Notes: generated from the letters alone by a model not told the origin. A stretch of DNA of 13,367 nt from Candidatus Woesearchaeota archaeon (GCA_964548105.1 CAZJPU010000025.1:1-13367); one strand, 5' to 3'; shown: positions 212 to 13,367, counted from the first letter of the stretch. Program-made: numbers and translations.

Positions 212-940
212 ATGAAAAACGAACTAAGAGATTTTGGATTAACAGATAATGAAATAAAGATTTATCTAGTTTTACTCAAGTTAGGGGATGCTAATCCTTC
301 AGAAATAGCTGAAAAAACAGGATTTTCTAGACCTTATGTTTATGATGTATTAGAGAGATTACTAGAAAAACAAATAGTATCAGTAGTTCATGAGAAAAAT
401 AAAAAGAAATATTCAGCAATTGAACCATCATATCTTGTTGAACTTGCAAAACAAAAAGTAGATAATATTGAGAAAATCCTCCCAGAATTAATAAGTCTTA
501 AAGGGACAAGCAAAGAAGAAATAAAAGTTGAAACACATAAAGGAAAATATGTTTTTAAGACACTTTTAAATGATATTATTAATAGAGGTAAAAAAAATGA
601 AGAAGTACTTTTGTATGGGATTGAAGAAGAGACATTAGAAGACCTTGGAGAGTTTATGCCAATATATTTTGATACATATTTTGCTAGACTAAAAAGCTTA
701 GGAATTAAAGAAAGAGTTATTACTAAAGTTGGAGGTAAAATCATTGCACCTACTCAAACTACAAAGTATAAGTTTTTGCCTGAAAAGACTATTGGTAATA
801 CTGCATTTGGAGTATATGAGAACAAAGTTTTTATTTTTCTATGGGGAGATCCAAATTACTTGATATCTATAGAAAGTAAAAGAGTTGCAGATTCTTATCG
901 GGGTCAATTTGAGATATTATGGAAGGCTGCTAAAGATTAA
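212..940 (+). CDS. TrmB-family transcriptional regulator (N-terminal winged helix plus ~150-aa C-terminal effector-like domain), paralog 1
   Basis: 242-aa ORF. The N-terminus GLTDNEIKIYLVLLKLGDANPSEIAEKTGFSRPYVYDVLERLLEKQIV matches the TrmB wHTH pattern. It is collinear by eye with the neighbouring 239-aa ORF, including the C-terminal YxNKVxIxxW...FxILWxxAK. Confidence 0.85.
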   Translation: MKNELRDFGLTDNEIKIYLVLLKLGDANPSEIAEKTGFSRPYVYDVLERLLEKQIVSVVHEKNKKKYSAIEPSYLVELAKQKVDNIEKILPELISLKGTSKEEIKVETHKGKYVFKTLLNDIINRGKKNEEVLLYGIEEETLEDLGEFMPIYFDTYFARLKSLGIKERVITKVGGKIIAPTQTTKYKFLPEKTIGNTAFGVYENKVFIFLWGDPNYLISIESKRVADSYRGQFEILWKAAKD

Positions 941-1656
941 TACTTTGCAACATTCCATAAGATTTTAAAGAAATTCATATTACTTTTTGCAGTATCTTCA
1001 CTTTTTATCATAAATCCAAAAGGCAATTCTGTCCAAACAATGGTAACTACCTTATTTCCATAGATTACTATTGTTGATGGAAAATCATAACTTTCAGGAA
1101 GAAACTTCATTTTTAATAATTTTAAAGATTCGTTTCTCTTTTTTTTCCTTACTTTCTCATTATAGATCATTTTAACATTTATTTTTAATTTTGATCTTTC
1201 TTTATTCCAATATTTCTGGTAAGCTGGAAACATATCTGCAAATTTACTTTGAGCTCCATAAGCAAATAAATCTTTTTTTTCTTTTAAAACATCTTCAAAA
1301 ATTGATTTTATGCCTTTCTTACCTTTAAAGATGATTGCTTCTTCTTTTAATTTATTAGAATTATATCTTTCTTTTAGTTCCCCCATAATTGAATTTAATT
1401 TCTCTTGTTTTTCAGTTATAATTTCTTGTAATCTTTCTGGATTAATTGGCTCAAAGACTTTTCTATTAGCTGAAACAACATAAGTTACTAGTCCTTTTTC
1501 AATAAGTCTTTCTAAGGCATCATATACATTTGTTCTATTGACCTCAGATTTATTTGTTATTTCTCCAGCTAATGCTGATCCTAGTTCAAGTAATGAAAGA
1601 TATACTTTTACTTCAGTGTTACTTAAGCCTATTTCTTGTAATATTTCTTTGTCCAT
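937..1656 (-). CDS. TrmB-family transcriptional regulator, paralog 2
   Basis: 239-aa ORF. The N-terminus GLSNTEVKVYLSLLELGSALAGEITNKSEVNRTNVYDALERLIEKGLV is a TrmB wHTH. The C-terminus (IVIYGNKVVTIVW...FFKILWNVAKY) parallels paralog 1. Confidence 0.85.
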   Translation of the reverse strand: MDKEILQEIGLSNTEVKVYLSLLELGSALAGEITNKSEVNRTNVYDALERLIEKGLVTYVVSANRKVFEPINPERLQEIITEKQEKLNSIMGELKERYNSNKLKEEAIIFKGKKGIKSIFEDVLKEKKDLFAYGAQSKFADMFPAYQKYWNKERSKLKINVKMIYNEKVRKKKRNESLKLLKMKFLPESYDFPSTIVIYGNKVVTIVWTELPFGFMIKSEDTAKSNMNFFKILWNVAKY

Positions 1657-1677
1657 AGCAACATTAGGGGATTGTAT

Positions 1678-1685
1678 TTTATAAA
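1678..1685 (-). promoter_or_regulatory. TTTATAAA TATA-box candidate for TrmB paralog 2
   Basis: This palindromic octamer lies 21 nt upstream of the start at 1656. The same octamer occurs at similar spacing upstream of two other minus-strand transcription-unit starts. Confidence 0.5.
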
Positions 1686-1712
1686 TGTTGTTATTAGAGT
1701 TACAACAAAAAC

Positions 1713-1720
1713 TTATATAT
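1713..1720 (+). promoter_or_regulatory. TTATATAT TATA-box candidate for SBP-A
   Basis: It is centred ~25 nt upstream of the ATG at 1741. This supports the 1741 start and a leaderless transcript. Confidence 0.45.
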
Positions 1721-1740
1721 GCTTTTTTGGAAAAAAATTT

Positions 1741-2799
1741 ATGGTAATCAAGAAAAAGACAATTATAATATTAGTATTATTGGTATTTTTAGTCTTAACT
1801 ATAAATCTTATACTGATTATTAATTCAAATATTACAGGTAAAAGTATAACTCATGAGAGTTATAAAATCGGAGTTATTCTTCCTATGAGTGGACATTTTG
1901 CTTTTTATGGAGAAAAATCATTACAAGGGGCAAAATTAGCAATTGAAAATTATGATAATATTGAACTTATAATAGAAGATGATGAAGGAGATCCAAGTAG
2001 AGCGGCAAGTGCTGCTCATAAACTAATTAATGTTGATGATGTTGATGCAATTATAACAATTAGGTCAAGTATAAGTTCTGCTATTGCTCCAATTGCAGAA
2101 AAAAATAAGGTTGTAATGCTATATCCTTCAACTATTAATGCTCCTGCTGAAGGAAATTCGTATGTTTATAAAAATTTTATTAATATAGAGAAAGATTGCA
2201 GTGAACTAGCTAAAGTTTTAAAAAATAAAAAAGGAGCTTTAATTGGACATAATCTTGATGCAACACATACTTGTATTAAAGGTTTTAAAGATCAAGGAGT
2301 TAATCTCCAATCAGAATTTTTTAATAAAGGGGATAATGATTTTAGGACATCTTTATTAAAAATAAAGGAAAATAATCCTGACTTCATTGTTATAAGGGGT
2401 GATAAAAAGATTTTGCCAACAATACTAAGACAAATGAAAGAACTTGATATAAATCAAGTACAACTAGTCTGCCCTCAATCTGGATTATGCAATGATAAAA
2501 AGACTATTCTAGAATTTGAAGAATACTTTGAAAATGCTTTAGGATCTTCAATTTATGAAGGGATTGAAGAAAATGGTTTTGAAGATCCAATAGATATGAC
2601 TTTTGCAATGTATGAAAATATTGACATACTTTCAAAGCTTCTAAATGATTGTAAGGGAAATAATGAATGTATGATTAAAGAGCTTCAAACTAAAAAGTTT
2701 CAAGGATTAGATGGAGAAATTGTATTTAATGATAAAGGGGTCTCTCAAAGATCTACAACATTAATGAAATTTGAAAATGGGGAATGGGAGATATATTAA
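1741..2799 (+). CDS. Type I periplasmic-binding-fold (LivJ/LivK-like) ABC substrate-binding protein with N-terminal TM anchor (SBP-A)
   Basis: The track ORF starts at 1672, but the internal ATG at 1741 gives MVIKKK plus a hydrophobic helix (TIIILVLLVFLVLTINLILII). This matches the other three SBPs and sits ~21 nt downstream of a TTATATAT box. The mature part starts YKIGVILPMSGHFAFYGEKSLQGAKLAIE, a typical Liv-type SBP N-lobe. Confidence 0.8.
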   Translation: MVIKKKTIIILVLLVFLVLTINLILIINSNITGKSITHESYKIGVILPMSGHFAFYGEKSLQGAKLAIENYDNIELIIEDDEGDPSRAASAAHKLINVDDVDAIITIRSSISSAIAPIAEKNKVVMLYPSTINAPAEGNSYVYKNFINIEKDCSELAKVLKNKKGALIGHNLDATHTCIKGFKDQGVNLQSEFFNKGDNDFRTSLLKIKENNPDFIVIRGDKKILPTILRQMKELDINQVQLVCPQSGLCNDKKTILEFEEYFENALGSSIYEGIEENGFEDPIDMTFAMYENIDILSKLLNDCKGNNECMIKELQTKKFQGLDGEIVFNDKGVSQRSTTLMKFENGEWEIY

Positions 2800-3899
2800 T
2801 TATCTAATGCTACAATATTACCATTATCTATTTTAATAAAACTAATCTCTTTGGTAACTCCGCCATCTTCAGTGAATGTAAGATAACCTGATGCTCCATC
2901 ATAATATTCAACAGTTTTCAGATATTCTTTTAATATTTCTGGATTAGTTGAATCAGTCTCTTCTATTGCTTTTGCAATTAACTTCACTATATCATAACCA
3001 TTATCTGCTCCAAAATCAGGAACTTGATTATATTCTTTTTTAAACTTTTCAATAAAATCTGTGGTTGGACTTACTTGAGAGGTTGCTATTGTTCCTTCTA
3101 AAGCTCCATTAGCATTTTCAATTCTGGTTGTATCAACTAATTCTGCATAAATAGGAATATTTACATCAGCCTGTTTTAATTGTTTTGAAATAATATCTTG
3201 GTAAATATACTGGATAAATATTGCATCAGGTTTAGCTTCTTTAACTTTTAATATTTCTGTTTTAAAATCCTTTTGTTCAGCAGAAGGAAGTTCGTAAACT
3301 ACTACTTCCCCTCCAGATTCAATAAAACTCTCCTTAACAGATCTTGCTTGAACAATCTCCCATGCTTGTTGTGATCCAATTATTGCAAGTTTTCTATGCC
3401 CATTATTATAAATCTTCTTTCCTAATAATCTACTTACATCTTCATCAGCCATCCAAATATTAAATATATAATCACATTCTTGTTCAAACTCTTTTATACC
3501 AATAGCTGGAGCAATCATTAACACATTGTTATTACAAGCAATTGGTGCAACTGCAAGAGCTGAACCTGACCAAGTTGTTCCAATAATAATCTCTACGCCA
3601 TTATTATTTAATTGATAGAAAGATGAAACTGCAGTTTTTTTATCATCATTTGGCGTATCTTGGTAATTTATCTTTATTTTTTTACCATTTATCCCCTCTG
3701 CATTATTAATTTCTTTTACTGCTAAATCAACACCTTGCTTTGTGGTAATTCCTTCGTTTGCTCCTACTCCAGATAATATTCCTATAAAACCAATTTCAAT
3801 TATTTCTTCTCCTTGTTTAGGAATAAATACAAAAATATTAACAATAATTATGGCAACAATTAAGACTGTTAACCCAACCAACATATTTTTATTCTTCAT
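2796..3899 (-). CDS. LivJ/LivK-like ABC substrate-binding protein, TM-anchored (SBP-B)
   Basis: 367-aa ORF. It has MKNKNMLVGLTVLIVAIIIVNIFVFI as anchor, then IEIGFIGILSGVGANEGITTKQGVDLAVKEINNAEGINGKKIKINYQD, the classic Liv-type SBP motif series. Confidence 0.85.
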   Translation of the reverse strand: MKNKNMLVGLTVLIVAIIIVNIFVFIPKQGEEIIEIGFIGILSGVGANEGITTKQGVDLAVKEINNAEGINGKKIKINYQDTPNDDKKTAVSSFYQLNNNGVEIIIGTTWSGSALAVAPIACNNNVLMIAPAIGIKEFEQECDYIFNIWMADEDVSRLLGKKIYNNGHRKLAIIGSQQAWEIVQARSVKESFIESGGEVVVYELPSAEQKDFKTEILKVKEAKPDAIFIQYIYQDIISKQLKQADVNIPIYAELVDTTRIENANGALEGTIATSQVSPTTDFIEKFKKEYNQVPDFGADNGYDIVKLIAKAIEETDSTNPEILKEYLKTVEYYDGASGYLTFTEDGGVTKEISFIKIDNGNIVALDN

Positions 3900-3920
3900 A
3901 TATCCAAAATAGAACCAAAC

Positions 3921-3928
3921 TTTTTAAA
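3921..3928 (-). promoter_or_regulatory. Possible internal TATA-like element (TTTAAAAA on the minus strand) for SBP-B
   Basis: It lies in the 30-nt livG/SBP-B gap, 21 nt upstream of the start at 3899, and abuts the livG stop. Confidence 0.3.
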
Positions 3929-3929
3929 T

Positions 3930-4664
3930 CTACTCACCTAAATAAGCCTCTAGAACTTGTTTATTGTTTTTTATTTGTTTAGGAGTTCCTTGTGCAATTA
4001 CTTTACCTTCATCCATTACAATAACATGGTCTGCTATTCCCAAGGTAAAATTCATATCATGTTCAATTAACAATATTGTTTCTCCTTGTTTTTTTAATTC
4101 CTTTAGAAGATTCATAATATCTTTTCTTAATCTAGGATTAACTCCTGCAACAGGTTCATCTAACATTAATAATTCATGAGATTTAAGAATAGCTCTTGCA
4201 ATTTCAACTAATCTTTTCTGACCAAAACTTAAATCTCCTGCTTGTTTTTCCATAAACTTTTCTATTCCAACTAATTTAGCAATATTATCTACTTGTTTAT
4301 AATCTTCTTTATCAAAATTATAACCTATTAAATTTTTCCAAAATTTAGTGTCTTTATTACTTATTGCCAATAATAAGTTTTCCTTAACTGTTAAATTATC
4401 AAATAATCTTGATTGTTGGAATAATCTTGAAATTCCTAAATTTGATATTTGATTTACTTGTTTATTTGTTATATTTGTCTTATTAAAAACAATTTTTCCA
4501 GAATCAGCCTTTAAGATTCCTGAAATTAAATTAAATATTGTTGTTTTCCCACTGCCATTAGGACCAATTAAGGCTGTAATCTTATTTTTTTTAATGTCAA
4601 AACTAGTTTTATCTACTGCTTTTATTCCTCCAAAATGTTTTTTTAAATTAGTTATTTTTAGCAT
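3930..4664 (-). CDS. livG: Branched-chain-amino-acid-type ABC transporter ATP-binding protein (LivG-like)
   Basis: It has Walker A GPNGSGKT, Q-loop context GISRLFQQSRLFDNLTVKENL (LivG-like rather than LivF-like), signature LSFGQKR, Walker B LLMLDEP, H-loop IEHDM and a C-terminal EAYLGE. Confidence 0.9.
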   Translation of the reverse strand: MLKITNLKKHFGGIKAVDKTSFDIKKNKITALIGPNGSGKTTIFNLISGILKADSGKIVFNKTNITNKQVNQISNLGISRLFQQSRLFDNLTVKENLLLAISNKDTKFWKNLIGYNFDKEDYKQVDNIAKLVGIEKFMEKQAGDLSFGQKRLVEIARAILKSHELLMLDEPVAGVNPRLRKDIMNLLKELKKQGETILLIEHDMNFTLGIADHVIVMDEGKVIAQGTPKQIKNNKQVLEAYLGE

Positions 4665-4665
4665 T

Positions 4666-5082
4666 TTATTTTATATTTGAGTATTTTTCTAATTCTTTTA
4701 TTATTAATGGGATTTCATTAATAGATTCTTTAACAGTTTTAATCTCAATATCATCACCATAATAATTTATCCCGTTTCTTAATTTTCTATATCTATCAAA
4801 CTTATTTGAAATAGATTCTTCCTTTAAAATCTCTCTTAAAAAATAAGTCATTGATTCATGGTTTAAGAATTTATATCCTTTAATAAAACCTAATGCTTCG
4901 ACATACTCTCTTAATCCTTCGTATAACTCTCGAAAAATTGTTTTTAGAGTATTTTCTTTAATGGTTATTTCAATTGCAGTTTCTATTGCTTGTTTAGAAG
5001 ATTTAACTAAACTTTTTGCTCTTATAGTATTCACTGGGACTTTTTTTACACTTCCTTGTTTTAAACAATATTTAAAATCCAT
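4666..5082 (-). CDS. HEPN-domain protein, partner of the upstream MNT; the canonical R-x4-6-H is replaced by R-x4-Y-Y
   Basis: 138 aa, predicted all-helical. The C-terminal third has FDRYRKLRNGINYYGDD, which matches the HEPN Rx4-6H region except for the His. Its start overlaps the stop of a minimal nucleotidyltransferase gene (TAATG), the classic MNT-HEPN pair arrangement. Confidence 0.65.
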   Translation of the reverse strand: MDFKYCLKQGSVKKVPVNTIRAKSLVKSSKQAIETAIEITIKENTLKTIFRELYEGLREYVEALGFIKGYKFLNHESMTYFLREILKEESISNKFDRYRKLRNGINYYGDDIEIKTVKESINEIPLIIKELEKYSNIK

Positions 5083-5612
5083 TATAAAACTTCTAACTCT
5101 CCTGATAAAACAATTCCATTACAGATACTGTTAACTAATCCAGAATTTTTATCCTTTAAATTTTCCCATGCTTTCTTAGTGAATTTATGAATATTAAGTT
5201 TTCTATTAAGGATTTTTTCATAGTTTTCTATTTTTAATTCTTTATTGATATCAGAGATTAGACAAATATCAATATCACTATCTAAATCATCCATTGCTTG
5301 AGAATAACTACCAAATAAAACAATTATCGGAAAGTCATATTCTTTTTCAAGTTCTTTAATAAGGCCTGATTTTCTTAATTTTTCTAGATTATAATATGCC
5401 TTTAGATTTAGTGTTTCTCTAGAAAGAACTAATTTATATGAGGGGTAGAGATCATCTTTTTCTAAGACTAATAAATCTCTTTTTACAAATATATTAAGAT
5501 ATTTTCTTATTGTTGTGTGGTTTATTTTTAATATTCTGGCTAATTCCCTAATATGAAATCCCTTTTTTGGATCTTCAAAAAAAGAACTAAGGATGTTTAT
5601 TTTTGTTTCCAT
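5082..5612 (-). CDS. Winged-helix plus minimal nucleotidyltransferase (MNT, Pol-beta superfamily) protein
   Basis: 176 aa. The N-terminal FHIRELARILKINHTTIRKYLNIFVKRDLL is HTH-like. The central VLFGSYSQAMDDLDSDIDICLIS is the G-S...D-x-D nucleotidyltransferase signature (G101-S102, D113, D115). Confidence 0.75.
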   Translation of the reverse strand: METKINILSSFFEDPKKGFHIRELARILKINHTTIRKYLNIFVKRDLLVLEKDDLYPSYKLVLSRETLNLKAYYNLEKLRKSGLIKELEKEYDFPIIVLFGSYSQAMDDLDSDIDICLISDINKELKIENYEKILNRKLNIHKFTKKAWENLKDKNSGLVNSICNGIVLSGELEVL

Positions 5613-5652
5613 ATGTAAGTATATATTTCCAGATGTTTATAAATGTTTCCAT
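5591..5652 (-). repeat. Direct duplication of the MNT gene 5' end (two 22-nt copies 40 nt apart)
   Basis: On the + strand, 5591..5612 ggatgtttatttttgtttccat aligns with 5631..5652 agatgtttataaatgtttccat at 18 of 22 positions. On the coding strand this is ATGGAAACAaaaATAAACATC (the real start) against ATGGAAACAtttATAAACATC, which overlaps the livM stop as TGATG. Confidence 0.8.
5636..5643 (-). promoter_or_regulatory. TTTATAAA TATA-box candidate upstream of the MNT-HEPN-livG-SBP-B segment
   Basis: The octamer lies 23 nt upstream of the MNT start at 5612. It sits inside the upstream copy of the duplicated 5' end, where the aaa-to-ttt difference creates it. Confidence 0.5.
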
Positions 5653-6524
5653 CACTCTAACTTTACTTTTCCATAAAATCCTTTTGGTTTAAAGATTAAT
5701 ATTAATAATAATATTAAAGCATACAAGATTTGTCTTGCAGGACCTATTACTGAACTTGGAAATCCAACAAATCTTAGCATCTCGGGAATTAATAATAGGA
5801 TAATTGTTGCAATCACGGTTCCTTTTAAGCTAGCGAGTCCTCCAACTATTACAATTAACAAGACAGGAATTAATTGCATTATTGTAAATGAAGAAGGATC
5901 AATAAAAGTTATATAATGAGCATATAAACTTCCTGAAATACCTGCAAAAAAGGCTGAGGCTCCTAATGCTATTGCTTTTATTTTAAAAGTATTTTTTCCA
6001 AGAGTTTTTGATGCAAGTTCATCATCCCTTACTGATTCAAGAACTTTTCCAAAAGGAGAGGTTGTTATTCTTTTGATAATTAAATATGAAACTAGTCCAA
6101 TAACTATTGTTAATATTAAGAAACTTAGGTTGCTTGAAAATATAAATCCAAATAAACTAGGTTTTGGAATTCCTGGAAGTCCAAGAGGGCCCCTAGTAAG
6201 TGAAGTCCAATTTAGTAAAACTGCATAAACCACAAAAGAAAAACCCATTGTTGCTAAAGCTAAATAATCTCCTTTTAATTTGTGGGTTGGGACGGCTAAT
6301 AAAAATCCAAAAATCATTGATACAATTCCTGCAAATAAAAGACAAATCCAAAAAGGCCAACCTGCAAGTGCGAGCAATGCACTTGTATATGCTCCAATTC
6401 CAAAAAAAGCAATATGTCCTAAATTAAGAAGTCCTGTAAATCCTATTGCAAGTTGAAGGCTTATAGCTAGAATAATATAAATTCCGATTAGTATTGCTAA
6501 GTGGATTAGGTATGCTTCTATCAT
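5652..6524 (-). CDS. livM: Branched-chain-amino-acid-type ABC transporter permease (LivM-like)
   Basis: 290 aa, polytopic and hydrophobic. GLLNLGHIAFFGIGAYTSALLA matches the LivM core motif, and KIKAIALGASAFFAGISGSLYA matches the C-terminal conserved region. Confidence 0.85.
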   Translation of the reverse strand: MIEAYLIHLAILIGIYIILAISLQLAIGFTGLLNLGHIAFFGIGAYTSALLALAGWPFWICLLFAGIVSMIFGFLLAVPTHKLKGDYLALATMGFSFVVYAVLLNWTSLTRGPLGLPGIPKPSLFGFIFSSNLSFLILTIVIGLVSYLIIKRITTSPFGKVLESVRDDELASKTLGKNTFKIKAIALGASAFFAGISGSLYAHYITFIDPSSFTIMQLIPVLLIVIVGGLASLKGTVIATIILLLIPEMLRFVGFPSSVIGPARQILYALILLLILIFKPKGFYGKVKLE

Positions 6525-7645
6525 TTTGAATATTCAACAAATTTTCCTCCTTTAATTGTTTTTATAACAAACTCCCTATCCAAACTTCCATCTTTATTAA
6601 ACTTCATTTTTCCAGAAAGACCCTCATAGATTCCTAAATTAATAAAAAAATCTTTTATACAATCAGTGTCCTTTTCATTACATTCTTCTAAGGCTTTATC
6701 AATTAATAAAATTCCATCATAAGTAAATAAGGATGTAGCAGTAGGAATCTCATTGTATTTCTCTTCATATCTTTTTTCGAAATCTTTTTCCCCCTCAGAA
6801 TCTTTTGCATTATTATAAGGGAAAGTGTAAATAAGTCCTTCTAGTGCTTTTCCTCCAGACTCAAGTACAGAAGGCGATTCTATCCCATAATATCCATAAA
6901 GTGGAATTGAATAATCAAGTTCTTTAAGTTGCTTTGCAAATAAACCAATCTGAATTTCTCCTTGATCTATAAAAATAGCATCAGGGTTATCTTTTTTAAT
7001 TTTTAATATCACTGTCCTAAAATCCATTAGGTCCAAATCTGTGGGGTTTATTGAACTAATTTCTATTCCTTTCTCTTCCAATGATTCTGGCAGTCTCTTT
7101 GCATATTCCTGACCAAAATAATTAGTGCTATGGACTATTGCAACTTTTTTTAGATTTATTGATTTCATAAACTCAGCCATATAATCTGCTTCTGTTGAAA
7201 TTTGTGTTGCAAAATTTAAAACACTAGAATATTCTTCAAAGACAGCATCATCTAATAATCCTGTTGAAAAAAGCAGGGCATTTTTTTTATCAGCCATTGG
7301 AGCAATTGCTCTTAAACCAGAAACACAACCAGGCCCAATTATAATTTTTATATTATCTAGGTTAAAGAATTTCTGAGCAATAGTTACTGTTTCTTTTGGA
7401 TCACAAGCACTATCTTGATAATCTACAGAGAATTTATGATTTGTATCTTCTAATCCTAGTTCTAAACCATATTTTATTGATTCTCCCCAATCAGCAAAAG
7501 GCCCTGTTAAAGGAGTTATAAACCCGATTTTAATTGTTTCTTCATCACCCTCTTGTTTTGGTGAAATTGAAATCAAAACAACTGCTATAATTAATACTGC
7601 TATTACAATTCCTGCAATTAAATTATTTTTATTTTTATTTTTCAT
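6521..7645 (-). CDS. LivJ/LivK-like ABC substrate-binding protein, TM-anchored (SBP-C)
   Basis: 374 aa. The anchor is LIAGIVIAVLIIAVVLISI, followed by IKIGFITPLTGPFADWGESIKYGLELGLED. Its stop overlaps the livM start (ATGA at 6521..6524). Confidence 0.85.
   Translation of the reverse strand: MKNKNKNNLIAGIVIAVLIIAVVLISISPKQEGDEETIKIGFITPLTGPFADWGESIKYGLELGLEDTNHKFSVDYQDSACDPKETVTIAQKFFNLDNIKIIIGPGCVSGLRAIAPMADKKNALLFSTGLLDDAVFEEYSSVLNFATQISTEADYMAEFMKSINLKKVAIVHSTNYFGQEYAKRLPESLEEKGIEISSINPTDLDLMDFRTVILKIKKDNPDAIFIDQGEIQIGLFAKQLKELDYSIPLYGYYGIESPSVLESGGKALEGLIYTFPYNNAKDSEGEKDFEKRYEEKYNEIPTATSLFTYDGILLIDKALEECNEKDTDCIKDFFINLGIYEGLSGKMKFNKDGSLDREFVIKTIKGGKFVEYSK
7518..7645 (-). repeat. Near-identical 5' cassette, copy 1 (SBP-C start, anchor and linker)
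   Basis: On the given (+) strand, ataaacccgattttaattgtttcttcatcaccctcttgttttggtgaaattgaaatcaaaacaactgctataattaatactgctattacaattcctgcaattaaattattttt...cat matches 8641..8762. The differences are 2 substitutions and one 6-nt indel. Confidence 0.9.
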
Positions 7646-8762
7646 ATTTTACGGCCTCCTTGTTTTTGATAATATTAACAGAAGGTTGGATACCTTCTAA
7701 ATCTCCATTTTCATCAAAACTATAATTTCCTAAAACACCTTCAAAATTTTCTAAATCATAAAGATAATCACGAATACAATCAGGATCATCACTATTGCAA
7801 GAGTCAATTGCTTGAACTAAGATATAAACTGCATCATATCTTGCAACAGCAGGAAACTCTAAATCTGGAAGCTCTTGATAGGTTGTTTTATATTTTGTAA
7901 AATATTGTTTTTTCTTTTCATTATTTGTGCTTGTTGGATCTGAAAAATATATCATATCTTGTGCTTTTTCAATTTGTTGAATTTTATTGCTTCCTCCAAA
8001 ATAATTTCCATATAAATCTCCATTATAATTTAATTCTTCAAGTTGTTTTAAGATTAGTTCTCCTTGTGCAAGCCCACTTGGATTAATGAATATTGCATCT
8101 AAATTAATAAGTTTCAATAATTCGGTTTTAAAATCAGTTGAACCTGATTCAAAATATTCTTCGATAATAACTCCCTCTGATTCTTCAAATTTAACTTTAA
8201 ATGCGTCTCGTAGTCCTATTGTGTAATCTGTTTGTTCTGAGATTAATCCTATTTTTTTATGTTTTTTAATAATAGTATCAGTTGCAATTTCTGCAATATC
8301 AGTATCTGAATATGAATTTCTGAATATAAAATCTCCTAAATTTGAGATATCTGGGTGAGTTGCATAAGTTGCAAATAAAATTACCTGATTTTCTTCAGCT
8401 ATTGGTGCAACAGTTAAAACTTCTTGGCCACAAGAAACAAGTAATATATTAATATTATCAAAATTAATTAGTTTATTTGCAGCAGATAATCCTCCTTCTC
8501 CGGTACATTTACCATCTTGAAATACTACTTCAAGTTGTTTTCCATTAACTCCTCCTTTATTGTTTATTTCTTCTACTGCAAGATTAGTTGCTTTTTCATC
8601 AATTGATCCTAAAAATGCAACATTTCCAGACAGCGGACCAATAAACCCGATTTTAATTGTTTCTTCATCACCCTCTTGTTTTGGTGAAATCGAAATCAAA
8701 ACAACTGCTATAATTAATACTGCAATTACAATTCCTGCAATTAAATTATTTTTATTTTTCAT
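7635..8762 (-). CDS. LivJ/LivK-like ABC substrate-binding protein, TM-anchored (SBP-D)
   Basis: 375 aa. It has the same anchor as SBP-C, then IKIGFIGPLSGNVAFLGSIDEKATNLAVEEINNKGGVNGKQLEVVFQD. Its start overlaps the livH stop (ATGA at 8759..8762). Confidence 0.85.
   Translation of the reverse strand: MKNKNNLIAGIVIAVLIIAVVLISISPKQEGDEETIKIGFIGPLSGNVAFLGSIDEKATNLAVEEINNKGGVNGKQLEVVFQDGKCTGEGGLSAANKLINFDNINILLVSCGQEVLTVAPIAEENQVILFATYATHPDISNLGDFIFRNSYSDTDIAEIATDTIIKKHKKIGLISEQTDYTIGLRDAFKVKFEESEGVIIEEYFESGSTDFKTELLKLINLDAIFINPSGLAQGELILKQLEELNYNGDLYGNYFGGSNKIQQIEKAQDMIYFSDPTSTNNEKKKQYFTKYKTTYQELPDLEFPAVARYDAVYILVQAIDSCNSDDPDCIRDYLYDLENFEGVLGNYSFDENGDLEGIQPSVNIIKNKEAVKYEK
8641..8762 (-). repeat. 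Near-identical 5' cassette, copy 2 (SBP-D start, anchor and linker)
   Basis: This is the partner of 7518..7645. It encodes MKNKNNLIAGIVIAVLIIAVVLISISPKQEGDEETIKIGFI, against MKNKNKNNLIAG... in copy 1. Similarity collapses immediately downstream. Confidence 0.9.
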
Positions 8763-9640
8763 TTTGAACTATTTCTTTTTATTCCAAGTATTCCATTAGG
8801 CCTGAACAGCAAAAATAAGAATAAAAGAAGGAATGCTATAGCATCTTTATATCCTGAAGGCAAAAACCAAATTCCAAAGTTTTCTGTAAGTCCTAAAAGA
8901 AAAGCTCCAAGAATAGCTCCTGGAACATTTCCTATTCCTCCAATAATTGCTGCTGTAAATCCTTTAATAATTAATCCAGTTCCCATAGTAGGCTCAAGAT
9001 TTTGTTCAAGAGAAACAAGAACTCCGGCAATTCCTGCAATTGCACTTCCTATTATAAATGACCATTTATAGATTTTTTCTGAAGAAATACCTACGATTGC
9101 TGCAACATCCTTATTATCAGCAACAGCACGCATAGCTTTTCCTATTTTTGTTTTCTTCATAAATAAAAATAATAATGTTAAAAGAATAAAGGAAGTGATT
9201 ATGATAAAAATCTGTAATGGAGTTATTATTGCGCCCATTAATTCAAGACCTTTATTTACTTCTATATACCCTATGGTTTTAACATCTGCTCCAAAGAAAA
9301 TTAAGAGGAGAGATTCTATAAGGATTAATAATCCAAAACTTGCGATTAAAAGAATAATATTACTTGCTTTTCTTTTTCTTAATTGTTTGTAAACTGTTGC
9401 ATTTATTAATAACCCTAAAAGGGCAGTAGAGATAATTGCAAGAATTACTGAAAATCCAAAATTTAACCCTAATACTGAATATGTAAGATATAGGGAATAA
9501 GCTCCAAAAGCAATAACTGCTCCATGAGCAAAATGAACAAATTTACAAGTAGAATAAATTAGTGAAAAACCACTAGCCACTAAAGCATAGATAGCTCCTG
9601 CAATTAATCCATTAACTAAAAGTTGAGTTATTATTGACAT
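8759..9640 (-). CDS. livH: Branched-chain-amino-acid-type ABC transporter permease (LivH-like)
   Basis: 293 aa, polytopic. QLLVNGLIAGAIYALVASGFSLIYSTCKFVHFAHGAVIAFGAY matches the LivH N-terminal signature. Confidence 0.85.
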   Translation of the reverse strand: MSIITQLLVNGLIAGAIYALVASGFSLIYSTCKFVHFAHGAVIAFGAYSLYLTYSVLGLNFGFSVILAIISTALLGLLINATVYKQLRKRKASNIILLIASFGLLILIESLLLIFFGADVKTIGYIEVNKGLELMGAIITPLQIFIIITSFILLTLLFLFMKKTKIGKAMRAVADNKDVAAIVGISSEKIYKWSFIIGSAIAGIAGVLVSLEQNLEPTMGTGLIIKGFTAAIIGGIGNVPGAILGAFLLGLTENFGIWFLPSGYKDAIAFLLLFLFLLFRPNGILGIKRNSSK

Positions 9641-9833: not shown

Positions 9834-12800
9834 ATGGAAGAAAAGAGTGAATCTAATCCAGTGAATGATATTGCAAATTCAATAGTTCAGAATGCTATAA
9901 ATAGTATGGCAGAAGATGGACAAAAAGCAGTAAATAAAGTTTTAGAAAATGGGGGGGAGAGTATTTCCCATAATAGTTCTATTAAACATGAAGTTTTAGA
10001 TGAATATGTAAAATGGTTCTCAGAATTAAGTAATAAAGATGTATCTATTGCAGGTGGAAAAGGAGCATCACTAAGTGAAATGTTTAATGCAAAATTTCCG
10101 GTTCCTCCTGGATTTGTTATAACAGCACAAGCATTTGATTTTTTTATTGTAAAAAATAAGTTAAAAGAAAAAATAAAATCAATAATAGAAGATGTTGATA
10201 TGGAAGAAACTTCGGATTTGCAAAAAGCATCAAAAGAAATCAGAGAATTAATTGAACAGGGTAAAATTTCAGAAAATCTACAAGAAGAAATTTTAGAATC
10301 CTATCGTATTTTAAGTACAGAGAAAATTGATGAAAAAGGAGTTTCTAAAGATGCATTAAATATTTTAAAAAATTCTCAAGAACCTATATTTGTATCAGTA
10401 AGAAGTAGTGCAACAACAGAGGACCTTGTTGAAGCAAGTTTTGCAGGCCAACAAGAAACTTTTTTAAATGTTAAGGGAGATTCTAGCTTGATTACGAACA
10501 TAAAAAAATGTTTTTCTTCATTATATACTCCTAGGGCAATTTATTATAGAAATAAAAAAGGTTTTAAAGAAGGAGAGGCACTATTATCTGTTGTTGTCCA
10601 AAAAATGGTTGATTCTGAAAAATCAGGGGTTGTTTTTTCAAAAGATCCTGTAAATTTAGATGATAATGTAATTATTGAAGCAGTTTATGGATTAGGAGAA
10701 GGAATTGTATCAGGTAAGATAAAACCAGACCATTATCTTGTCTCAAGAGATTTAAAGATTCGAGAAATAAAGGTTGTAAGTAAAAAGGTTGCACTTATAA
10801 GAACAAGTAGTGGAAAAAATGAGATAGTTAAATTAAGTGATGAAAGAAGTAAAATGCAAGTTCTTACTAATTCTCAAATACTTGATGTTGCAAATTATGC
10901 AATAAAACTTGAAGAACATTATAAAAAACCACAAGATATTGAATTTGCAATTGAAGATAATAAAATATATATTGTCCAGTCAAGACCAATTACAACACTT
11001 CATAAAAAAACTGAAATAGGGAAAATTTCTGGAACTGTAATTTTAGAAGGTTCGAGTGCTAGTCCTGGTGTTGGTGCTGGAACTGTAAAAATACTTCATG
11101 ATATGGAAGATCTTCCAAAAATCAAAAAAGGAGATGTTTTAGTTACTGAAATGACAAATCCTGATATGGTTGTTGCAATGCAAAGGTCTGTTGCAATTGT
11201 AACAGATGAAGGGGGTATGACAAGTCATGCAGCAATTGTTAGTCGTGAAATGGGAATTCCTTGTGTTGTTGGTACTGATGAAGCAACAAAATTACTAAAA
11301 GATGGTATGAAAATAACTGTTGATGGTAGTAGTGGTAAAATATATGAGGGAGAGGTAGCAGAAACAAAAGCAGTTGAAGTTAAACCTATTGTTGAAACTG
11401 AACGTATTAAATTAAAGGTTATTGTAGACTTACCAGATTTTGCAGAAAGAGCTGCTGCATCAGGAATTAGGGCAGTAGGACTTACAAGATTAGAAGGCAT
11501 GATTGCAAAAATGGGAAAACATCCTCTTGAACATGAAAAAGAAGGCACATTAGAGGACTATACAGAAAAACTTCGTGATGGTTTAGAAAGAATTTCTCAT
11601 TATTTTGATTCTTTATGGGTGAGAGCAAGTGATATTAGAACAGATGAATATGGAAGTTTAAAAGGAGCTCCAGAACGTGAGATTAATCCTATGCTTGGAT
11701 TTCACGGAGTAAGATTTAGTTTAAAACATCCAAAAATATTACAAGCAGAATTAATTGCTATAAAAAAGATTGCAGAAAAAAATCCAAATAAAAGATTTGG
11801 AATTATGTTTCCACAGATAATATCTATAGAAGAAGTTAGAGAAGCAAAAAAATATTTTAATCAAATAAAATTGCCAAACATGGAATTTGGAGTAATGATA
11901 GAAACACCTGGTGCTGTTCAAATTATTGATGATATTTGTCAAGAAGGGATTGATTTTATAAGTTTTGGGACAAATGATTTAACTCAATTTACATTAGGAG
12001 TTGATAGGAATAATGAAGATGTGCAATACTTATATGATGAAATGCATCCTGCAATTTTTTCTCAAATAAAACGAGTTATTGGGGCTTGTAGAAGAAATAA
12101 AGTAGAAACAAGTATTTGTGGACAAGCAGGAAGTAAAAAGGAAATGGTAGAATTTTTATTTAAAAAAGGAATAAATAGTATTTCTGTAAATGCAGATGCT
12201 GGTTATGAAATATCAAAGTTAATAAAACAATTAGAAGAAGAAGGAACTAGAGAAACAGAAGAGAATAAAGAAGATATTTCAGTTCAAGAAGATGTTCGAC
12301 CTGTTGTTCAAGAGAAGGCAATAGAACCAGAACAATCAGCAGAAGTAGAACAATCAGCAGAAGTAGAACAATCAGCAGAAGTAGAACAACCTGTTGTGCA
12401 AGAGAAAGAACAAAAAATAGAACAAGTGCAAACTAAACTACCTCAACCAGATTTACAAAATCAACAAGTTTCACAACCTCAACAAGTTTCACAAAATCAA
12501 CCAGATTCACAATCTCCATATCCTATTTTGAATAAAAAAAGATATATCAGACTTAAGAAAAAATTGAAAAAAATGCAAAAAAGCCCTAATAATAATCCTG
12601 AAGTAATTGAAAGAATATCTAAAGAACTTGAAGAATATAGGAAAAATAGAGATTCGTCTAATGCTCCAATATCTGAAAACAAAGATTATGAAGAAAATAT
12701 TGGCCCTATTGAACCTTTTAATAGTCTAAAAGAAATAGAAGAAAAAGCAAAAGAAATACATGAAGAAGTAAAACAAGAGAACTTAGAAAAAGCTAAAGAA

Positions 12801-13367
12801 AATCAGGAAATAGAAGATAGGATAAAAACAAGTATTGAAAGGGTAGATGGTGAGGAGATCGAAAGGGATAATGAGGAGATAGAAAGGGATAATGAGGAGA
12901 TAGAAGGGAATGAGGTAAATGGTGATGATATAAAAAATAATGATGAAGAGATGGAAATGGATGAAATAAAGAGTGAGGATGAGGGGATGGAAAGGGATGA
13001 AATAAAGAGTGAAAATGAAGAGATAGAAAGGGATATGCAAGGAGATACAGATAATAAAGATCAATCAATAGGAATTGATAATGAAGAAGATAAATTTGAT
13101 GAAGTAAATGCGCAAAAAATTATGGATGAGGTTGATGGGTTAAGTAATTTTAATAATGAAGATGAAAATGATAAAGAGAGAAAAAGGGATAATGAATATG
13201 AAAATAATAATAAAGAGGATAATGATGATGAAGAAAATGATGAAGATAATAAAGGGGATGAAATAAAGAGTGAAAATGATGAAGATGGTAAAGAGGAAGG
13301 ATTAGGAGTTTACAAACCTAAAGAAGAAAAAAAGCAAGAATATAGTTATGGTTTTGACGAGGAATAG
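9834..13367 (+). CDS. ppsA: Phosphoenolpyruvate synthase (pyruvate, water dikinase) with ~57-aa N-terminal extension and ~375-aa acidic low-complexity C-terminal tail
   Basis: The core spans residues ~58-800. It has YVKWFSELSNKDVSIAGGKGASLSEM (PpsA N-terminus, ATP-grasp) and IYIVQSRPIT. The swivel domain is GGMTSHAAIVSREMGIPCVVG, with the phospho-His codon at 11226..11228. The PEP-utilising barrel has FGVMIETPGA, ISFGTNDLTQF and SICGQAG (Cys codon 12117..12119). The frame stays open a further 375 codons to TAG at 13365..13367. Confidence 0.9.
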   Translation: MEEKSESNPVNDIANSIVQNAINSMAEDGQKAVNKVLENGGESISHNSSIKHEVLDEYVKWFSELSNKDVSIAGGKGASLSEMFNAKFPVPPGFVITAQAFDFFIVKNKLKEKIKSIIEDVDMEETSDLQKASKEIRELIEQGKISENLQEEILESYRILSTEKIDEKGVSKDALNILKNSQEPIFVSVRSSATTEDLVEASFAGQQETFLNVKGDSSLITNIKKCFSSLYTPRAIYYRNKKGFKEGEALLSVVVQKMVDSEKSGVVFSKDPVNLDDNVIIEAVYGLGEGIVSGKIKPDHYLVSRDLKIREIKVVSKKVALIRTSSGKNEIVKLSDERSKMQVLTNSQILDVANYAIKLEEHYKKPQDIEFAIEDNKIYIVQSRPITTLHKKTEIGKISGTVILEGSSASPGVGAGTVKILHDMEDLPKIKKGDVLVTEMTNPDMVVAMQRSVAIVTDEGGMTSHAAIVSREMGIPCVVGTDEATKLLKDGMKITVDGSSGKIYEGEVAETKAVEVKPIVETERIKLKVIVDLPDFAERAAASGIRAVGLTRLEGMIAKMGKHPLEHEKEGTLEDYTEKLRDGLERISHYFDSLWVRASDIRTDEYGSLKGAPEREINPMLGFHGVRFSLKHPKILQAELIAIKKIAEKNPNKRFGIMFPQIISIEEVREAKKYFNQIKLPNMEFGVMIETPGAVQIIDDICQEGIDFISFGTNDLTQFTLGVDRNNEDVQYLYDEMHPAIFSQIKRVIGACRRNKVETSICGQAGSKKEMVEFLFKKGINSISVNADAGYEISKLIKQLEEEGTRETEENKEDISVQEDVRPVVQEKAIEPEQSAEVEQSAEVEQSAEVEQPVVQEKEQKIEQVQTKLPQPDLQNQQVSQPQQVSQNQPDSQSPYPILNKKRYIRLKKKLKKMQKSPNNNPEVIERISKELEEYRKNRDSSNAPISENKDYEENIGPIEPFNSLKEIEEKAKEIHEEVKQENLEKAKENQEIEDRIKTSIERVDGEEIERDNEEIERDNEEIEGNEVNGDDIKNNDEEMEMDEIKSEDEGMERDEIKSENEEIERDMQGDTDNKDQSIGIDNEEDKFDEVNAQKIMDEVDGLSNFNNEDENDKERKRDNEYENNNKEDNDDEENDEDNKGDEIKSENDEDGKEEGLGVYKPKEEKKQEYSYGFDEE
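12330..12389 (+). repeat. Perfect 18-nt tandem repeat, 3.3 copies (EQSAEV)n, in the ppsA tail
   Basis: gaacaatcagcagaagta occurs at 12330, 12348 and 12366 with no mismatch, then gaacaa. The array is flanked by the direct repeat cctgttgt[t/g]caagagaa at 12300 and 12390 (PVVQEK). Confidence 0.95.
12462..12497 (+). repeat. 18-nt tandem repeat, 2 copies (QQVSQP/QQVSQN)
   Basis: caacaagtttcacaa occurs at 12462 and 12480, in frame. Confidence 0.9.
12852..12914 (+). repeat. 21-nt tandem repeat, 3 copies (EEIERDN, EEIERDN, EEIEGNE)
   Basis: The copies are gaggagatcgaaagggataat, gaggagatagaaagggataat and gaggagatagaagggaatgag. Copies 1 and 2 differ at one base. Confidence 0.9.
12994..13018 (+). repeat. 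25-nt perfect dispersed repeat, copy 1 (RDEIKSEN)
   Basis: gggatgaaataaagagtgaaaatga is identical at 13255..13279, 261 nt away and in frame. A third, degenerate copy lies at ~12959 (MDEIKSED). Confidence 0.9.
13255..13279 (+). repeat. 25-nt perfect dispersed repeat, copy 2 (GDEIKSEN)
   Basis: Identical to 12994..13018. Confidence 0.9.

What the first reader, a model, noticed from the sequence alone, without database searches (positions are those of the whole stretch)
12240..13367. PEP synthase carries a ~375-aa acidic, repeat-rich, probably disordered C-terminal tail
The catalytic core is complete and ends near residue 800 (...YEISKLIKQLEEEG), but the frame continues for 375 codons. The tail consists almost entirely of E, D, K, N and Q. 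It contains at least four repeat families and no evident hydrophobic core, so it adds nearly half the length of the enzyme again. PpsA proteins are typically ~750-820 aa. From memory, some archaeal PEP synthase homologues form very large homomultimers through a short C-terminal helical extension. An extension at this end therefore has functional precedent, but nothing of this size or composition is familiar to me. Possible roles are scaffolding or condensate formation, cation binding, surface or partner tethering in a host-dependent archaeon, or tolerated junk sequence.
Basis: partly seen in the sequence, partly recalled or inferred. Interest (0 to 1): 0.65.

Follow-up and report, generated by a model that had tools for sequence, protein, structure and literature searches.

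The report
Modular disordered tail on archaeal PEP synthase
A small symbiotic-type archaeon's PEP synthase carries a real 375-residue acidic tail that is shared across its lineage and is not featureless: fast-changing spacers link conserved helices and a conserved end peptide, which suggests the tail tethers or assembles the enzyme.

Summary
ORF 9834-13367 encodes a complete PEP synthase (core residues 57-802) followed in frame by 375 residues (net charge -67, five tandem-repeat arrays). Independent contigs span the core/tail junction and the stop codon without differences.

The tail is neither junk nor unique. Nearly all of the 120 closest homologues (Woesearchaeota, Pacearchaeota, Nanoarchaeota) have tails of 50-550 aa. 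The tail is modular:
- Variable acidic spacers that change by repeat slippage.
- A basic amphipathic helix (898-916). A sister subtype has a CxxC-x17-CxxC zinc finger here.
- A helix–NIGPIEP–acidic-helix module (922-1005), found in 97 of 116 homologue tails.
- A strictly C-terminal peptide, GVY(N/K)P…YxYxF(D/E)(D/E), found in about 70 of 117.

An exhaustive profile search of 1.84 billion proteins and an unbiased metagenome motif scan found these modules only on PEP synthase. Neighbouring genes carry no such tails, so this is not a genome-wide compositional effect.

The most likely reading is a flexible polyanionic tether presenting docking elements. I favour PpsA self-association, weakly, over a dedicated partner or cis-regulation. 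The function is inferred, not shown. I rate it a new variant of a known kind, of moderate to high interest.

The parts
9834..13367 (+). ppsA ORF, 1177 aa plus TAG stop (the last 3 bases of the window)
   Evidence: NCBIfam NF005057 scores 774 bits against a cutoff of 598
9834..10001 (+). N-terminal extension (res 1-56). It carries the lineage-conserved motif NSIVQNAINSMAEDGQKAVN (res 15-34, nt 9876-9935), followed by a short spacer.
   Evidence: The motif GLIxDAIxSMD..QK(A/P)VN occurs in 48 of 121 sequences (the query plus 120 homologues). AF2 predicts a helix at 10-25 with pLDDT about 57.
10002..12239 (+). Catalytic core (res 57-802): ATP-grasp PPDK_N domain, swivelling His domain (GGMTSHAAI, H465) and PEP/pyruvate TIM-barrel domain (C762)
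   Evidence: matches PDB 8a8e at E 3e-199
12192..12293 (+). Last core helix, which runs on past the Pfam domain end (res 787-820). It sits where the oligomerisation helix of hyperthermophile PpsA lies, but has no Met.
   Evidence: AF2 helix H787-820 with block pLDDT falling from about 93 to 69 along the helix; alignment to 8a8e ends at res 803; sequence
12294..12524 (+). Spacer 1 (res 821-897), disordered. It contains EQSAEV x3 (12329-12389, 100 % DNA identity) and Q/P-rich repeats (12440-12516).
   Evidence: pLDDT 30-42; no homologue aligns here
12525..12581 (+). Basic amphipathic helix alpha1 (res 898-916, ILNKKRYIRLKKKLKKMQK; local net charge +10 over 20 aa)
   Evidence: pLDDT 84-86 in the full-length model and 80-88 in the tail-only model. 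A 20-aa window of net charge +6 or more lies upstream of island 1 in 83 of 98 tails and never downstream.
12597..12653 (+). Helix alpha2 (res 922-940, PEVIERISKELEEYRKNRD). It corresponds to IEKAQDIAESY in the zinc-finger-type homologues.
12687..12848 (+). Island 1 (res 952-1005): YEENIGPIEPFNSL followed by the acidic amphipathic helix KEIEEKAKEIHEEVKQENLEKAKENQEIED, then RIKTSIERVD
   Evidence: Found in 97 of 116 homologue tails by an iterated HMM, E 1e-24 to 1e-4. It has a conserved hydrophobic stripe and pLDDT 86-95. It occurs only on PpsA among 1.84e9 representative proteins.
12849..13298 (+). Spacer 2 (res 1006-1155), polyacidic. Net charge is -49 over residues 1008-1155 (net charge per residue -0.33 over the spacer). 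It contains EEIERDN x3, DEIKSE.E..ER x3 and N/D/E-rich repeats.
   Evidence: pLDDT about 30-35. The equivalent spacer is 1-160 aa long and acidic in 61 of 64 tails that carry both modules.
13299..13364 (+). C-terminal peptide GLGVYKPKEEKKQEYSYGFDEE (res 1156-1177), immediately before the stop codon
   Evidence: The family motif ExIGVY(N/K)PxEE..K.KYxYxFDD occurs in about 70 of 117 tails. In 15 of 15 metagenome loci it lies 0-4 aa from the stop, and all 12 assessable loci are PpsA. X6 contig 13285-13367 is identical.

Best explanation
The tail is a genuine, translated part of the enzyme. It is a lineage-specific, PpsA-specific modular extension found in Woesearchaeota, Pacearchaeota and Nanoarchaeota.

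Its order is: core helix, then neutral or acidic disordered spacer, then a basic element, then helix–NIGPIEP–acidic amphipathic helix, then a polyacidic disordered spacer, then an aromatic-acidic peptide at the very C-terminus. In this protein the basic element is a K/R-rich amphipathic helix. In a sister subtype it is a CxxC-x17-CxxC zinc finger with basic flanks.

The spacers evolve quickly by repeat slippage and keep only their composition. The embedded elements are conserved.

I read it as a flexible polyanionic tether that presents short docking elements. The elements occur on no other protein family. PpsA is at least dimeric, so its tails are multivalent. The tail also holds amphipathic helices of opposite charge that do not pack on each other in a monomer model. 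On these grounds the target I favour is PpsA itself in trans: tails link enzyme dimers into larger assemblies. That would be a mesophile counterpart of the C-terminal-helix-driven 24-mer of hyperthermophile PpsA.

Shown: reality of the ORF, modular conservation, PpsA specificity, and the disorder/helix pattern. Inferred: that the modules are binding sites, and that the partner is PpsA.
For: - The ORF is real and in frame.
- Tails are the norm in 120 homologues at 55-76 % identity.
- Conserved islands sit within otherwise unalignable tails.
- Island 1 is in 97 of 116 homologue tails. The C-terminal peptide is in about 70 of 117 tails.
- The charge order is conserved. A basic window lies upstream of island 1 in 83 of 98 tails and never downstream. 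Spacer 2 is acidic in 61 of 64.
- Among the near-identical variants P0094-P0100, all length change falls in spacer repeats while the modules stay essentially invariant.
- Island 1 is PpsA-specific. The exhaustive HMMER search gave 19 hits, of which 18 are PpsA C-terminal pieces or tail fragments.
- The C-terminal motif is PpsA-specific. In the metagenome pattern scan all 12 assessable loci are PpsA, and the motif is always within 0-4 aa of the stop.
- AF2 gives helices at pLDDT 80-95 with or without the core, but pTM of only 0.32 for the tail alone, so there is no confident intramolecular bundle.
- The island helix has a conserved hydrophobic stripe that needs something to pack against.
- Precedent: the C-terminal helix of P. 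furiosus and S. marinus PpsA drives tetramer and 24-mer assembly.
Against: - There is no direct evidence of any interaction.
- AF2 gives the C-terminal peptide pLDDT of about 35 and shows no docking on the core. Only a monomer could be modelled.
- The basic element is replaced by a zinc finger in 27 of 121 sequences. That zinc finger elsewhere occurs as a small stand-alone protein, often with RGG-like tracts. This fits a nucleic-acid or other external partner at least as well as self-association.
- The Met motif that nucleates the hyperthermophile 24-mer is absent.
- Some homologues end right after island 1 and a few lack the tail altogether, so the terminal peptide is dispensable in some lineages.
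- A tail charge of -67 would oppose self-association unless counter-ions or the basic blocks compensate.
Confidence: 0.4

Rival explanations
1. The tail is a scaffold or address label for an external partner. Its basic helix or zinc finger, amphipathic helices and end peptide would dock PpsA onto RNA or ribosomes, the membrane, or one or more dedicated proteins. This is the way the disordered C-terminal half of RNase E carries membrane-, RNA- and protein-binding microdomains.
For: - The architecture is several short conserved elements inside long variable disorder.
- The zinc finger of the sister subtype is TIGR04272/PF23477. Elsewhere it is a 42-73-aa stand-alone protein, often with Gly/Arg-rich tracts, which has an RNA-binding flavour.
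- The K/R/W-rich helix could bind anionic lipid or nucleic acid.
- Uncharacterised ~245-aa gene families recur next to tailed ppsA in 7 and in 4-5 related loci.
- AF2 shows no docking on the PpsA core.
Against: - The modules are found on no other client protein, which is unusual for a hub-binding motif.
- The recurrent neighbour genes are absent next to the closest homologue P0001 and from the window.
- No partner has been identified.
Confidence: 0.3
2. The tail is a cis-acting regulator. The tethered acidic/aromatic end peptide, or the helices, fold back on the enzyme. They could act as a pseudo-substrate or as a brake on the swivelling His domain, tuning the direction or rate of the PEP/pyruvate interconversion.
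For: - The modules are PpsA-specific.
- The conserved peptide sits at the extreme C-terminus on a long leash. This is the layout of known fold-back tails such as the SSB acidic tip (established knowledge, not tested here).
- These archaea are not known to have the bacterial PpsA regulatory protein (from memory).
Against: - AF2 with 91 sequences gives no confident docking of the peptide (pLDDT about 35).
- Helix confidence is the same with and without the core.
- Leash length varies from 1 to 160 aa.
- Some homologues lack the peptide.
Confidence: 0.15
3. The tail plays a passive physical role only. It would act as an entropic bristle, solubility enhancer or cation (Mg2+) buffer, with function residing in bulk charge rather than in specific binding.
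For: - Composition, not sequence, is conserved in the spacers. Spacer 2 is acidic in 61 of 64 tails, with a median net charge per residue of -0.27.
- Lengths drift by slippage.
Against: It does not explain the conserved helices, the NIGPIEP segment, the basic block, or a peptide fixed within 0-4 residues of the stop codon in divergent lineages.
Confidence: 0.1
4. The tail is an artefact or junk. It could be a misassembly, a missed stop or frameshift that fuses a downstream gene, or a non-functional slippage product tolerated at the 3' end.
For: - The repeat-rich stretch 12927-13284 has no independent contig cover.
- No RNA data are available.
Against: - The junction and the stop region are confirmed in independent runs.
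- None of 20000 shuffles keeps the frame open.
- The conserved island 1 and the terminal peptide are in frame with the core.
- The same fusion occurs in more than 100 independent assemblies and in all 12 assessable metagenome loci.
Confidence: 0.03

Closest known systems
Multimeric archaeal PEP synthase (P. furiosus PPSA 24-mer, PDB 8a8e; S. marinus MAPS)
   Same: It is the same enzyme (E 3e-199 to 8a8e). In both, the C-terminal end beyond the PEP-binding domain carries an added function. In the hyperthermophiles that function is oligomerisation through a C-terminal helix. In the query the last core helix is also predicted to run on to about residue 820.
   Different: The known element is about 20 residues with a Met that coordinates Fe(II). 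The query has no Met there. It instead adds 375 residues of spacers and modules with no sequence relation to that element. The known case is tied to hyperthermophily. These tails come from salt-lake, marine and groundwater metagenomes (source names for hits such as P0040 and P0084).
Disordered linker plus conserved C-terminal peptide systems: bacterial SSB (linker + acidic tip DDDIPF) and FtsZ (C-terminal linker + C-terminal peptide)
   Same: Both have a variable-length, poorly conserved, composition-constrained linker ending in a short conserved peptide at the extreme C-terminus. The aromatic-acidic character of the tip resembles the SSB tip. This is an analogy recalled from established knowledge.
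   Different: There is no homology. The partner here is unknown. The PpsA tail has additional internal modules (basic helix or zinc finger, island 1). The host protein is a metabolic enzyme rather than a DNA-binding or cytoskeletal protein.
RNase E C-terminal scaffold (RNA degradosome) with microdomains
   Same: Both are a several-hundred-residue natively disordered region on an enzyme. Both are punctuated by short conserved segments of structural propensity, including an amphipathic helix, basic segments and a binding site at the extreme C-terminus (an analogy from established knowledge; the features here come).
   Different: There is no homology and the host lineage and enzyme differ. No client proteins have been identified. 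The PpsA tail is far more acidic.
CxxC-x17-CxxC zinc-finger proteins (TIGR04272 / PF23477)
   Same: 27 of 121 sequences in the set carry this finger at the position where the query has its basic helix.
   Different: The query tail has no cysteine at all, so it does not contain this domain. Elsewhere the finger is a stand-alone 42-73-aa protein.

Membership tests
PEP synthase / pyruvate, water dikinase (NCBIfam NF005057, TIGR01418) | Three-domain architecture: PPDK_N, PEP-utilizers mobile domain, PEP-utilizers_C | tested here: met
   Pfam E-values are 8e-101, 3.5e-29 and 1.7e-65, with the domains in the right order.
PEP synthase / pyruvate, water dikinase (NCBIfam NF005057, TIGR01418) | Score above the curated equivalog cut-offs | tested here: met
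   NF005057 scores 774.3 against 598, and TIGR01418 scores 745.5 against 739.75.
PEP synthase / pyruvate, water dikinase (NCBIfam NF005057, TIGR01418) | Catalytic His in the mobile domain and conserved Cys in the PEP-binding domain | tested here: met
   GGMTSHAAI with H465, and ICGQAG with C762, are invariant in the 91-sequence alignment.
MAPS-type 24-meric archaeal PEP synthase | Conserved Met (Met799 in P. furiosus) flanked by charged residues in the C-terminal helix | tested here: not met
   The query sequence 787-830 contains no Met. The alignment to 8a8e ends at residue 803.
MAPS-type 24-meric archaeal PEP synthase | An alpha-helical segment of about 20 residues directly after the PEP-binding domain | tested here: inconclusive
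   AF2 extends the last helix to residue 820 at pLDDT 69-84. The sequence is not conserved among homologues.
MAPS-type 24-meric archaeal PEP synthase | Assembly into tetramers and a 24-mer | not testable with these tools
   Only monomer prediction was available. This needs SEC-MALS, mass photometry or cryo-EM.
Linker-plus-terminal-peptide tether (functional class, e.g. SSB, FtsZ) | Linker of variable length and sequence but constrained composition | tested here: met
   Spacer 2 is 1-160 aa and acidic in 61 of 64 tails. Repeat-number polymorphism is confined to spacers.
Linker-plus-terminal-peptide tether (functional class, e.g. SSB, FtsZ) | Short conserved peptide fixed at the extreme C-terminus | tested here: met
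   The motif is in about 70 of 117 tails. It lies 0-4 aa from the stop in 15 of 15 metagenome loci.
Linker-plus-terminal-peptide tether (functional class, e.g. SSB, FtsZ) | The peptide binds a defined partner | not testable with these tools
   AF2 shows no docking in the monomer model. Binding assays are needed.
CxxC-x17-CxxC zinc finger (TIGR04272 / PF23477) | Two CxxC pairs about 17 residues apart | tested here: not met
   The query tail has 0 % Cys and no Pfam or NCBIfam hit. The finger is present only in the sister subtype.
Halophile 'salt-in' acidic proteome | General acidity of cytoplasmic proteins of the genome | tested here: not met
   The 11 other ORFs in the window have pI 4.5-9.7. 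The cytoplasmic regulators and the ATPase are basic. Homologues with tails also come from non-saline sources (source names).

The most novel reading that the evidence does not exclude
In Woesearchaeota- and Pacearchaeota-type archaea, PEP synthase has been turned into an organising hub. Its long disordered N- and C-terminal arms would carry PpsA-specific docking elements (basic helix or zinc finger, acidic helix, aromatic end peptide). These would assemble the enzyme, possibly with RNA, cations or other glycolytic proteins, into a membraneless metabolic body, or anchor it at a defined cellular site in these ultra-small cells. That would be an archaeal counterpart of the RNase E degradosome scaffold, built on a central-carbon enzyme.
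Probability: 0.15. Interest if true: 0.85.

Novelty: new variant of a known kind. Interest (0 to 1): 0.6.

Why it matters
Long disordered regions with embedded short linear motifs are common in eukaryotes but rare, and rarely analysed, in archaea. Here a central-carbon enzyme carries such a region across a whole uncultivated lineage. In sugar-fermenting archaea that enzyme can also run in the ATP-yielding direction, as established for Thermococcus (recalled from memory).

The region has a clear grammar: the charge order, three helices and a fixed end peptide are conserved, while the spacers change by repeat slippage. This gives a concrete, testable handle on how genome-reduced, ultra-small archaea organise metabolism. 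It also extends the known link between the PpsA C-terminus and quaternary structure from hyperthermophiles to mesophiles.

For annotation, the practical point is that gene lengths of 900-1400 aa for ppsA in these lineages are real and should not be trimmed or flagged as fusions.

I found no paper describing these tails.

Tried and rejected
- **Tail against Pfam and NCBIfam:** no hit.
- **C-terminal-motif profile against the 5.8-billion word-indexed library:** only 419 candidates and 3 hits, all short PpsA tail fragments. This search was underpowered and is not used as evidence of absence. Two earlier attempts failed on parameter limits.
- **Broad alignments for locus scans:** Narrower ones worked. 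One genome hit (L006, Desulfurivibrio) is spurious, with no PpsA and 35 % identity.
- **Foldseek of the tail-only model against PDB:** nothing below E = 1.
- **RNA-seq runs:** none listed.
- **The exact protein in the contig index:** not on record, so the gene downstream of the window could not be seen.
- **Halophilic adaptation:** rejected. Neighbouring proteins are not acidic, and tailed homologues occur in marine, groundwater and river samples (source names).
- **Genome-wide compositional effect:** rejected. None of the 11 other window ORFs shows such a tail, and none of 48 ORFs in related loci has an acidic terminus.
- **MAPS-type Met–Fe oligomerisation motif:** absent.
- **A universally conserved partner gene next to ppsA:** rejected. 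The recurrent neighbours are missing beside the closest homologue.
- **Single-alpha-helix (E/K-rich) reading of island 1:** disfavoured, because a conserved hydrophobic stripe runs along the helix.
- **A self-contained three-helix bundle:** not supported. The tail-only pTM is 0.32 despite high helix pLDDT.

Full report
**1. The observation**

The window's last ORF (9834-13367, + strand) is 1177 codons and ends with TAG on the final three bases. Pfam finds the three PEP synthase domains in order: PPDK_N 71-394, mobile His domain 430-501 and PEP-utilizers_C 516-800. Two NCBIfam equivalog models for PEP synthase exceed their cut-offs and cover residues 57-806. The closest solved structure is the P. 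furiosus enzyme, 8a8e, at E 3e-199.

The frame then continues for 375 codons (803-1177 = nt 12240-13364). The tail has net charge -67 and pI 4.26. It is 59.5 % E+D+K+N+Q, so it is acidic and polar but not 'almost entirely' these five residues. Tandem Repeats Finder reports at least five arrays. One is an 18-nt unit repeated 3.4 times at 100 % identity.

None of 20000 shuffles of the region stays open in frame, and the other five frames hold 11-80 stops. Contigs from independent salt-lake metagenome runs span the core/tail junction with no differences. They continue to 12926 and cover 13285-13367 including the stop. Only the repeat-rich stretch 12927-13284 lacks independent support. Because a conserved module and a conserved end peptide lie in frame on either side of that stretch, a frameshift inside it is unlikely.

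**2. The tail is the norm in its lineage**

The 120 best database matches are 55-76 % identical in the core. Their sources name them as Pacearchaeota, Nanoarchaeota or simply 'archaeon'. Most are 850-1416 aa long.

Using the query core as a ruler, their C-terminal tails run from 13 to 552 aa. The median over the query plus these homologues is 234 aa. N-terminal extensions run from 5 to 212 aa. Only a few proteins (775-783 aa) lack a tail. A DNA-pattern scan of species-representative genomes found island 1 in Woesearchaeota and Nanoarchaeota MAGs.

**3. The tail is modular, not featureless**

Comparing the query tail with the other tails shows two conserved islands in otherwise unalignable sequence.

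- **Island 1 (residues 952-1005).** Its sequence is YEENIGPIEPFNSL followed by an acidic amphipathic helix. An iterated profile finds it in 97 of 116 homologue tails. Its helix has a conserved hydrophobic stripe at profile positions 16, 23, 27, 35, 41 and 45, with a conserved Asn at 31.
- **The last 22 residues, GLGVYKPKEEKKQEYSYGFDEE.** These belong to a family motif, ExIGVY(N/K)PxEE…K.KYxYxF(D/E)(D/E)(W/Y/F). The motif is present in about 70 of 117 tails (query included). Sub-variants end in …YSDVF or …PGFGEDY.
- **A basic block upstream of island 1.** The query has ILNKKRYIRLKKKLKKMQK here. A 20-residue window of net charge +6 or more occurs upstream of island 1 in 83 of 98 tails and never downstream.

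In 27 of the 121 sequences (query plus 120 homologues) the basic position is occupied by a CxxC-x17-CxxC zinc finger (PF23477 / TIGR04272) with basic flanks. The query tail has no cysteine and lacks it. Homologues show further micro-motifs: WGKKAE(L/V)GF, LPELP…IEDI, LLNKEKIQISAEREGVD and IEKAQDIAESY. The query retains only the last of these, as helix alpha2.

**4. Structure prediction**

AlphaFold2 on the full protein with a 91-sequence alignment gives a confident core.

| Residues | Element | pLDDT |
|---|---|---|
| 787-820 | last core helix, extended | falls from about 93 to 69 along the helix (10-residue block means) |
| 822-897 | spacer 1 | 30-42 |
| 898-916, 922-940 | helices alpha1, alpha2 | 84-86 |
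| 966-995 | island-1 helix | 86-88 |
| 997-1177 | spacer 2 and end peptide | about 30-35 |

A second prediction of residues 888-1012 alone keeps the three helices at pLDDT 80-95, but pTM is only 0.32. The helices therefore do not depend on the core, and they are not confidently packed into one bundle. Foldseek finds no structural relative.

**5. Spacers evolve by slippage; modules do not**

The spacer between island 1 and the end peptide is 1-160 aa long. It is acidic in 61 of 64 tails that carry both modules, with a median net charge per residue of -0.27. In six near-identical variants (P0094-P0100) every length difference falls in a P/A/V-rich repeat spacer. From the basic helix to the C-terminus the sequences are essentially invariant. 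The query's own perfect 18-nt repeats point the same way.

**6. The modules are specific to PEP synthase**

An exhaustive HMMER search of 1.84 billion representative proteins with the island-1 profile gave only 19 hits at E ≤ 1e-3. Eighteen of these are PpsA C-terminal pieces or recognisable tail fragments. The other is a spurious repeat protein.

An unbiased metagenome scan for the end-peptide patterns gave 15 confirmed loci. All 12 that reach far enough upstream carry the PpsA core in the same frame. The motif is always 0-4 residues from the stop.

No comparable tail is seen on the 11 other ORFs of the window. None of 48 ORFs in related loci has an acidic terminus. The window's other proteins have pI 4.5-9.7, so this is not a halophile-style acidic proteome.

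**7. What it most likely does**

Several features together are the signature of a disordered tether carrying docking elements:
- conserved short elements of structural propensity within long, fast-evolving, composition-constrained disorder
- a fixed charge order
- a peptide pinned to the C-terminus

They argue against junk and against a purely passive polyanion.

The identity of the partner is inferred. I weakly favour PpsA itself in trans (confidence about 0.4 for the whole statement), for four reasons:
- The elements exist on no other protein.
- The enzyme is at least a dimer by homology with PPDK, so the tails are multivalent.
- The tail contains a strongly basic and a strongly acidic amphipathic helix that the monomer model does not pair.
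- The C-terminal end of archaeal PpsA is already known to drive tetramer and 24-mer formation in hyperthermophiles.

Against this reading:
- No docking is predicted.
- The Met–Fe motif of the known 24-mer is absent.
- The zinc finger that replaces the basic helix in the sister subtype is elsewhere a small stand-alone protein, often with Gly/Arg-rich tracts. That hints at RNA or another external ligand.

The main rival (0.3) is therefore an external partner or scaffold role, analogous to the microdomain-bearing C-terminal half of RNase E. Cis-regulation (0.15) and a passive role (0.1) follow. Artefact is about 0.03.

**8. Comparison with known systems, and novelty**

As an enzyme this is a bona fide PEP synthase, and all its defining features were tested and met. 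It is not a member of the MAPS-type family by the Met criterion. Whether it works like one, through C-terminal-driven assembly, remains open. Its layout resembles SSB and FtsZ (linker plus terminal peptide) and RNase E (scaffold with microdomains), by analogy only.

Literature searches found no description of these tails. I classify it as a new variant of a known kind, with interest 0.6.

Noticed in passing
window 9834-10001 (res 1-56; motif at 9876-9935): The same ORF has an N-terminal extension with a lineage-conserved motif, GLIxDAIxSMD..QK(A/P)VN. The query version is NSIVQNAINSMAEDGQKAVN. The motif sits at the extreme N-terminus of 48 of 121 sequences (query plus 120 homologues). It is followed by a variable spacer of up to 212 aa. 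Both ends of the enzyme therefore carry disordered arms tipped with conserved elements.
   Followed up: partly
homologues P0001-P0120 (tails): There are two mutually exclusive architectures. Subtype N has the N-terminal motif plus a K/R/W-rich basic helix, with or without WGKKAE motifs (48 proteins, including the query). Subtype Z has a short N-terminus plus a CxxC-x17-CxxC zinc finger in the tail (27 proteins). No protein has both.
   Followed up: partly
L012:1608-2336, L001:147-890, L002:2036-2812, L003:5241-5966, L005:3383-4138, L013:5654-6424; L007:2681-3409, L008:3670-4431, L011:4536-5411: Two unrelated, uncharacterised protein families of about 245 aa recur within 0.1-3 kb of tailed ppsA on the same strand. 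Family A is in 7 loci and family C in 4-5 loci. Neither has a meaningful Pfam, NCBIfam or PDB match (only weak sub-threshold hits). They are absent beside the closest homologue (L022) and from the window. They are possible clade-specific partners, but untested.
   Followed up: partly
window 4666-5612 (- strand): A small gene pair sits inside the ABC-transporter cluster. One gene is a 176-aa nucleotidyltransferase with an HTH (Polbeta/NTP_transf_2). The other is an adjacent 138-aa ORF with no family hit, and the two overlap by one base. The pair looks like an MNT/HEPN-type toxin-antitoxin pair. An NTP_transf_2 gene also recurs near ppsA in 6 related loci and in L022.
   Followed up: no
window 212-9640: The context is two convergent TrmB-family regulators (212-940 +, 937-1656 -, overlapping by 4 nt) and a branched-chain-amino-acid-type ABC transporter. 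The transporter has five paralogous Peripla_BP_6 binding proteins, two permeases and one ATPase.
   Followed up: no
P0094-P0100 tails (homologues): These variants show repeat-number polymorphism. They are near-identical and differ only in the number of P/A/V-rich repeats in the first spacer. The WG(K/T/E)KGxV motif occurs three times in these proteins.
   Followed up: partly
window 11533-11750, run X1: A 17-kb contig at about 4-5 times higher depth matches only two short core stretches, at roughly 90 % identity. This suggests a second, more abundant PpsA-bearing relative in the same salt-lake sample.
   Followed up: no
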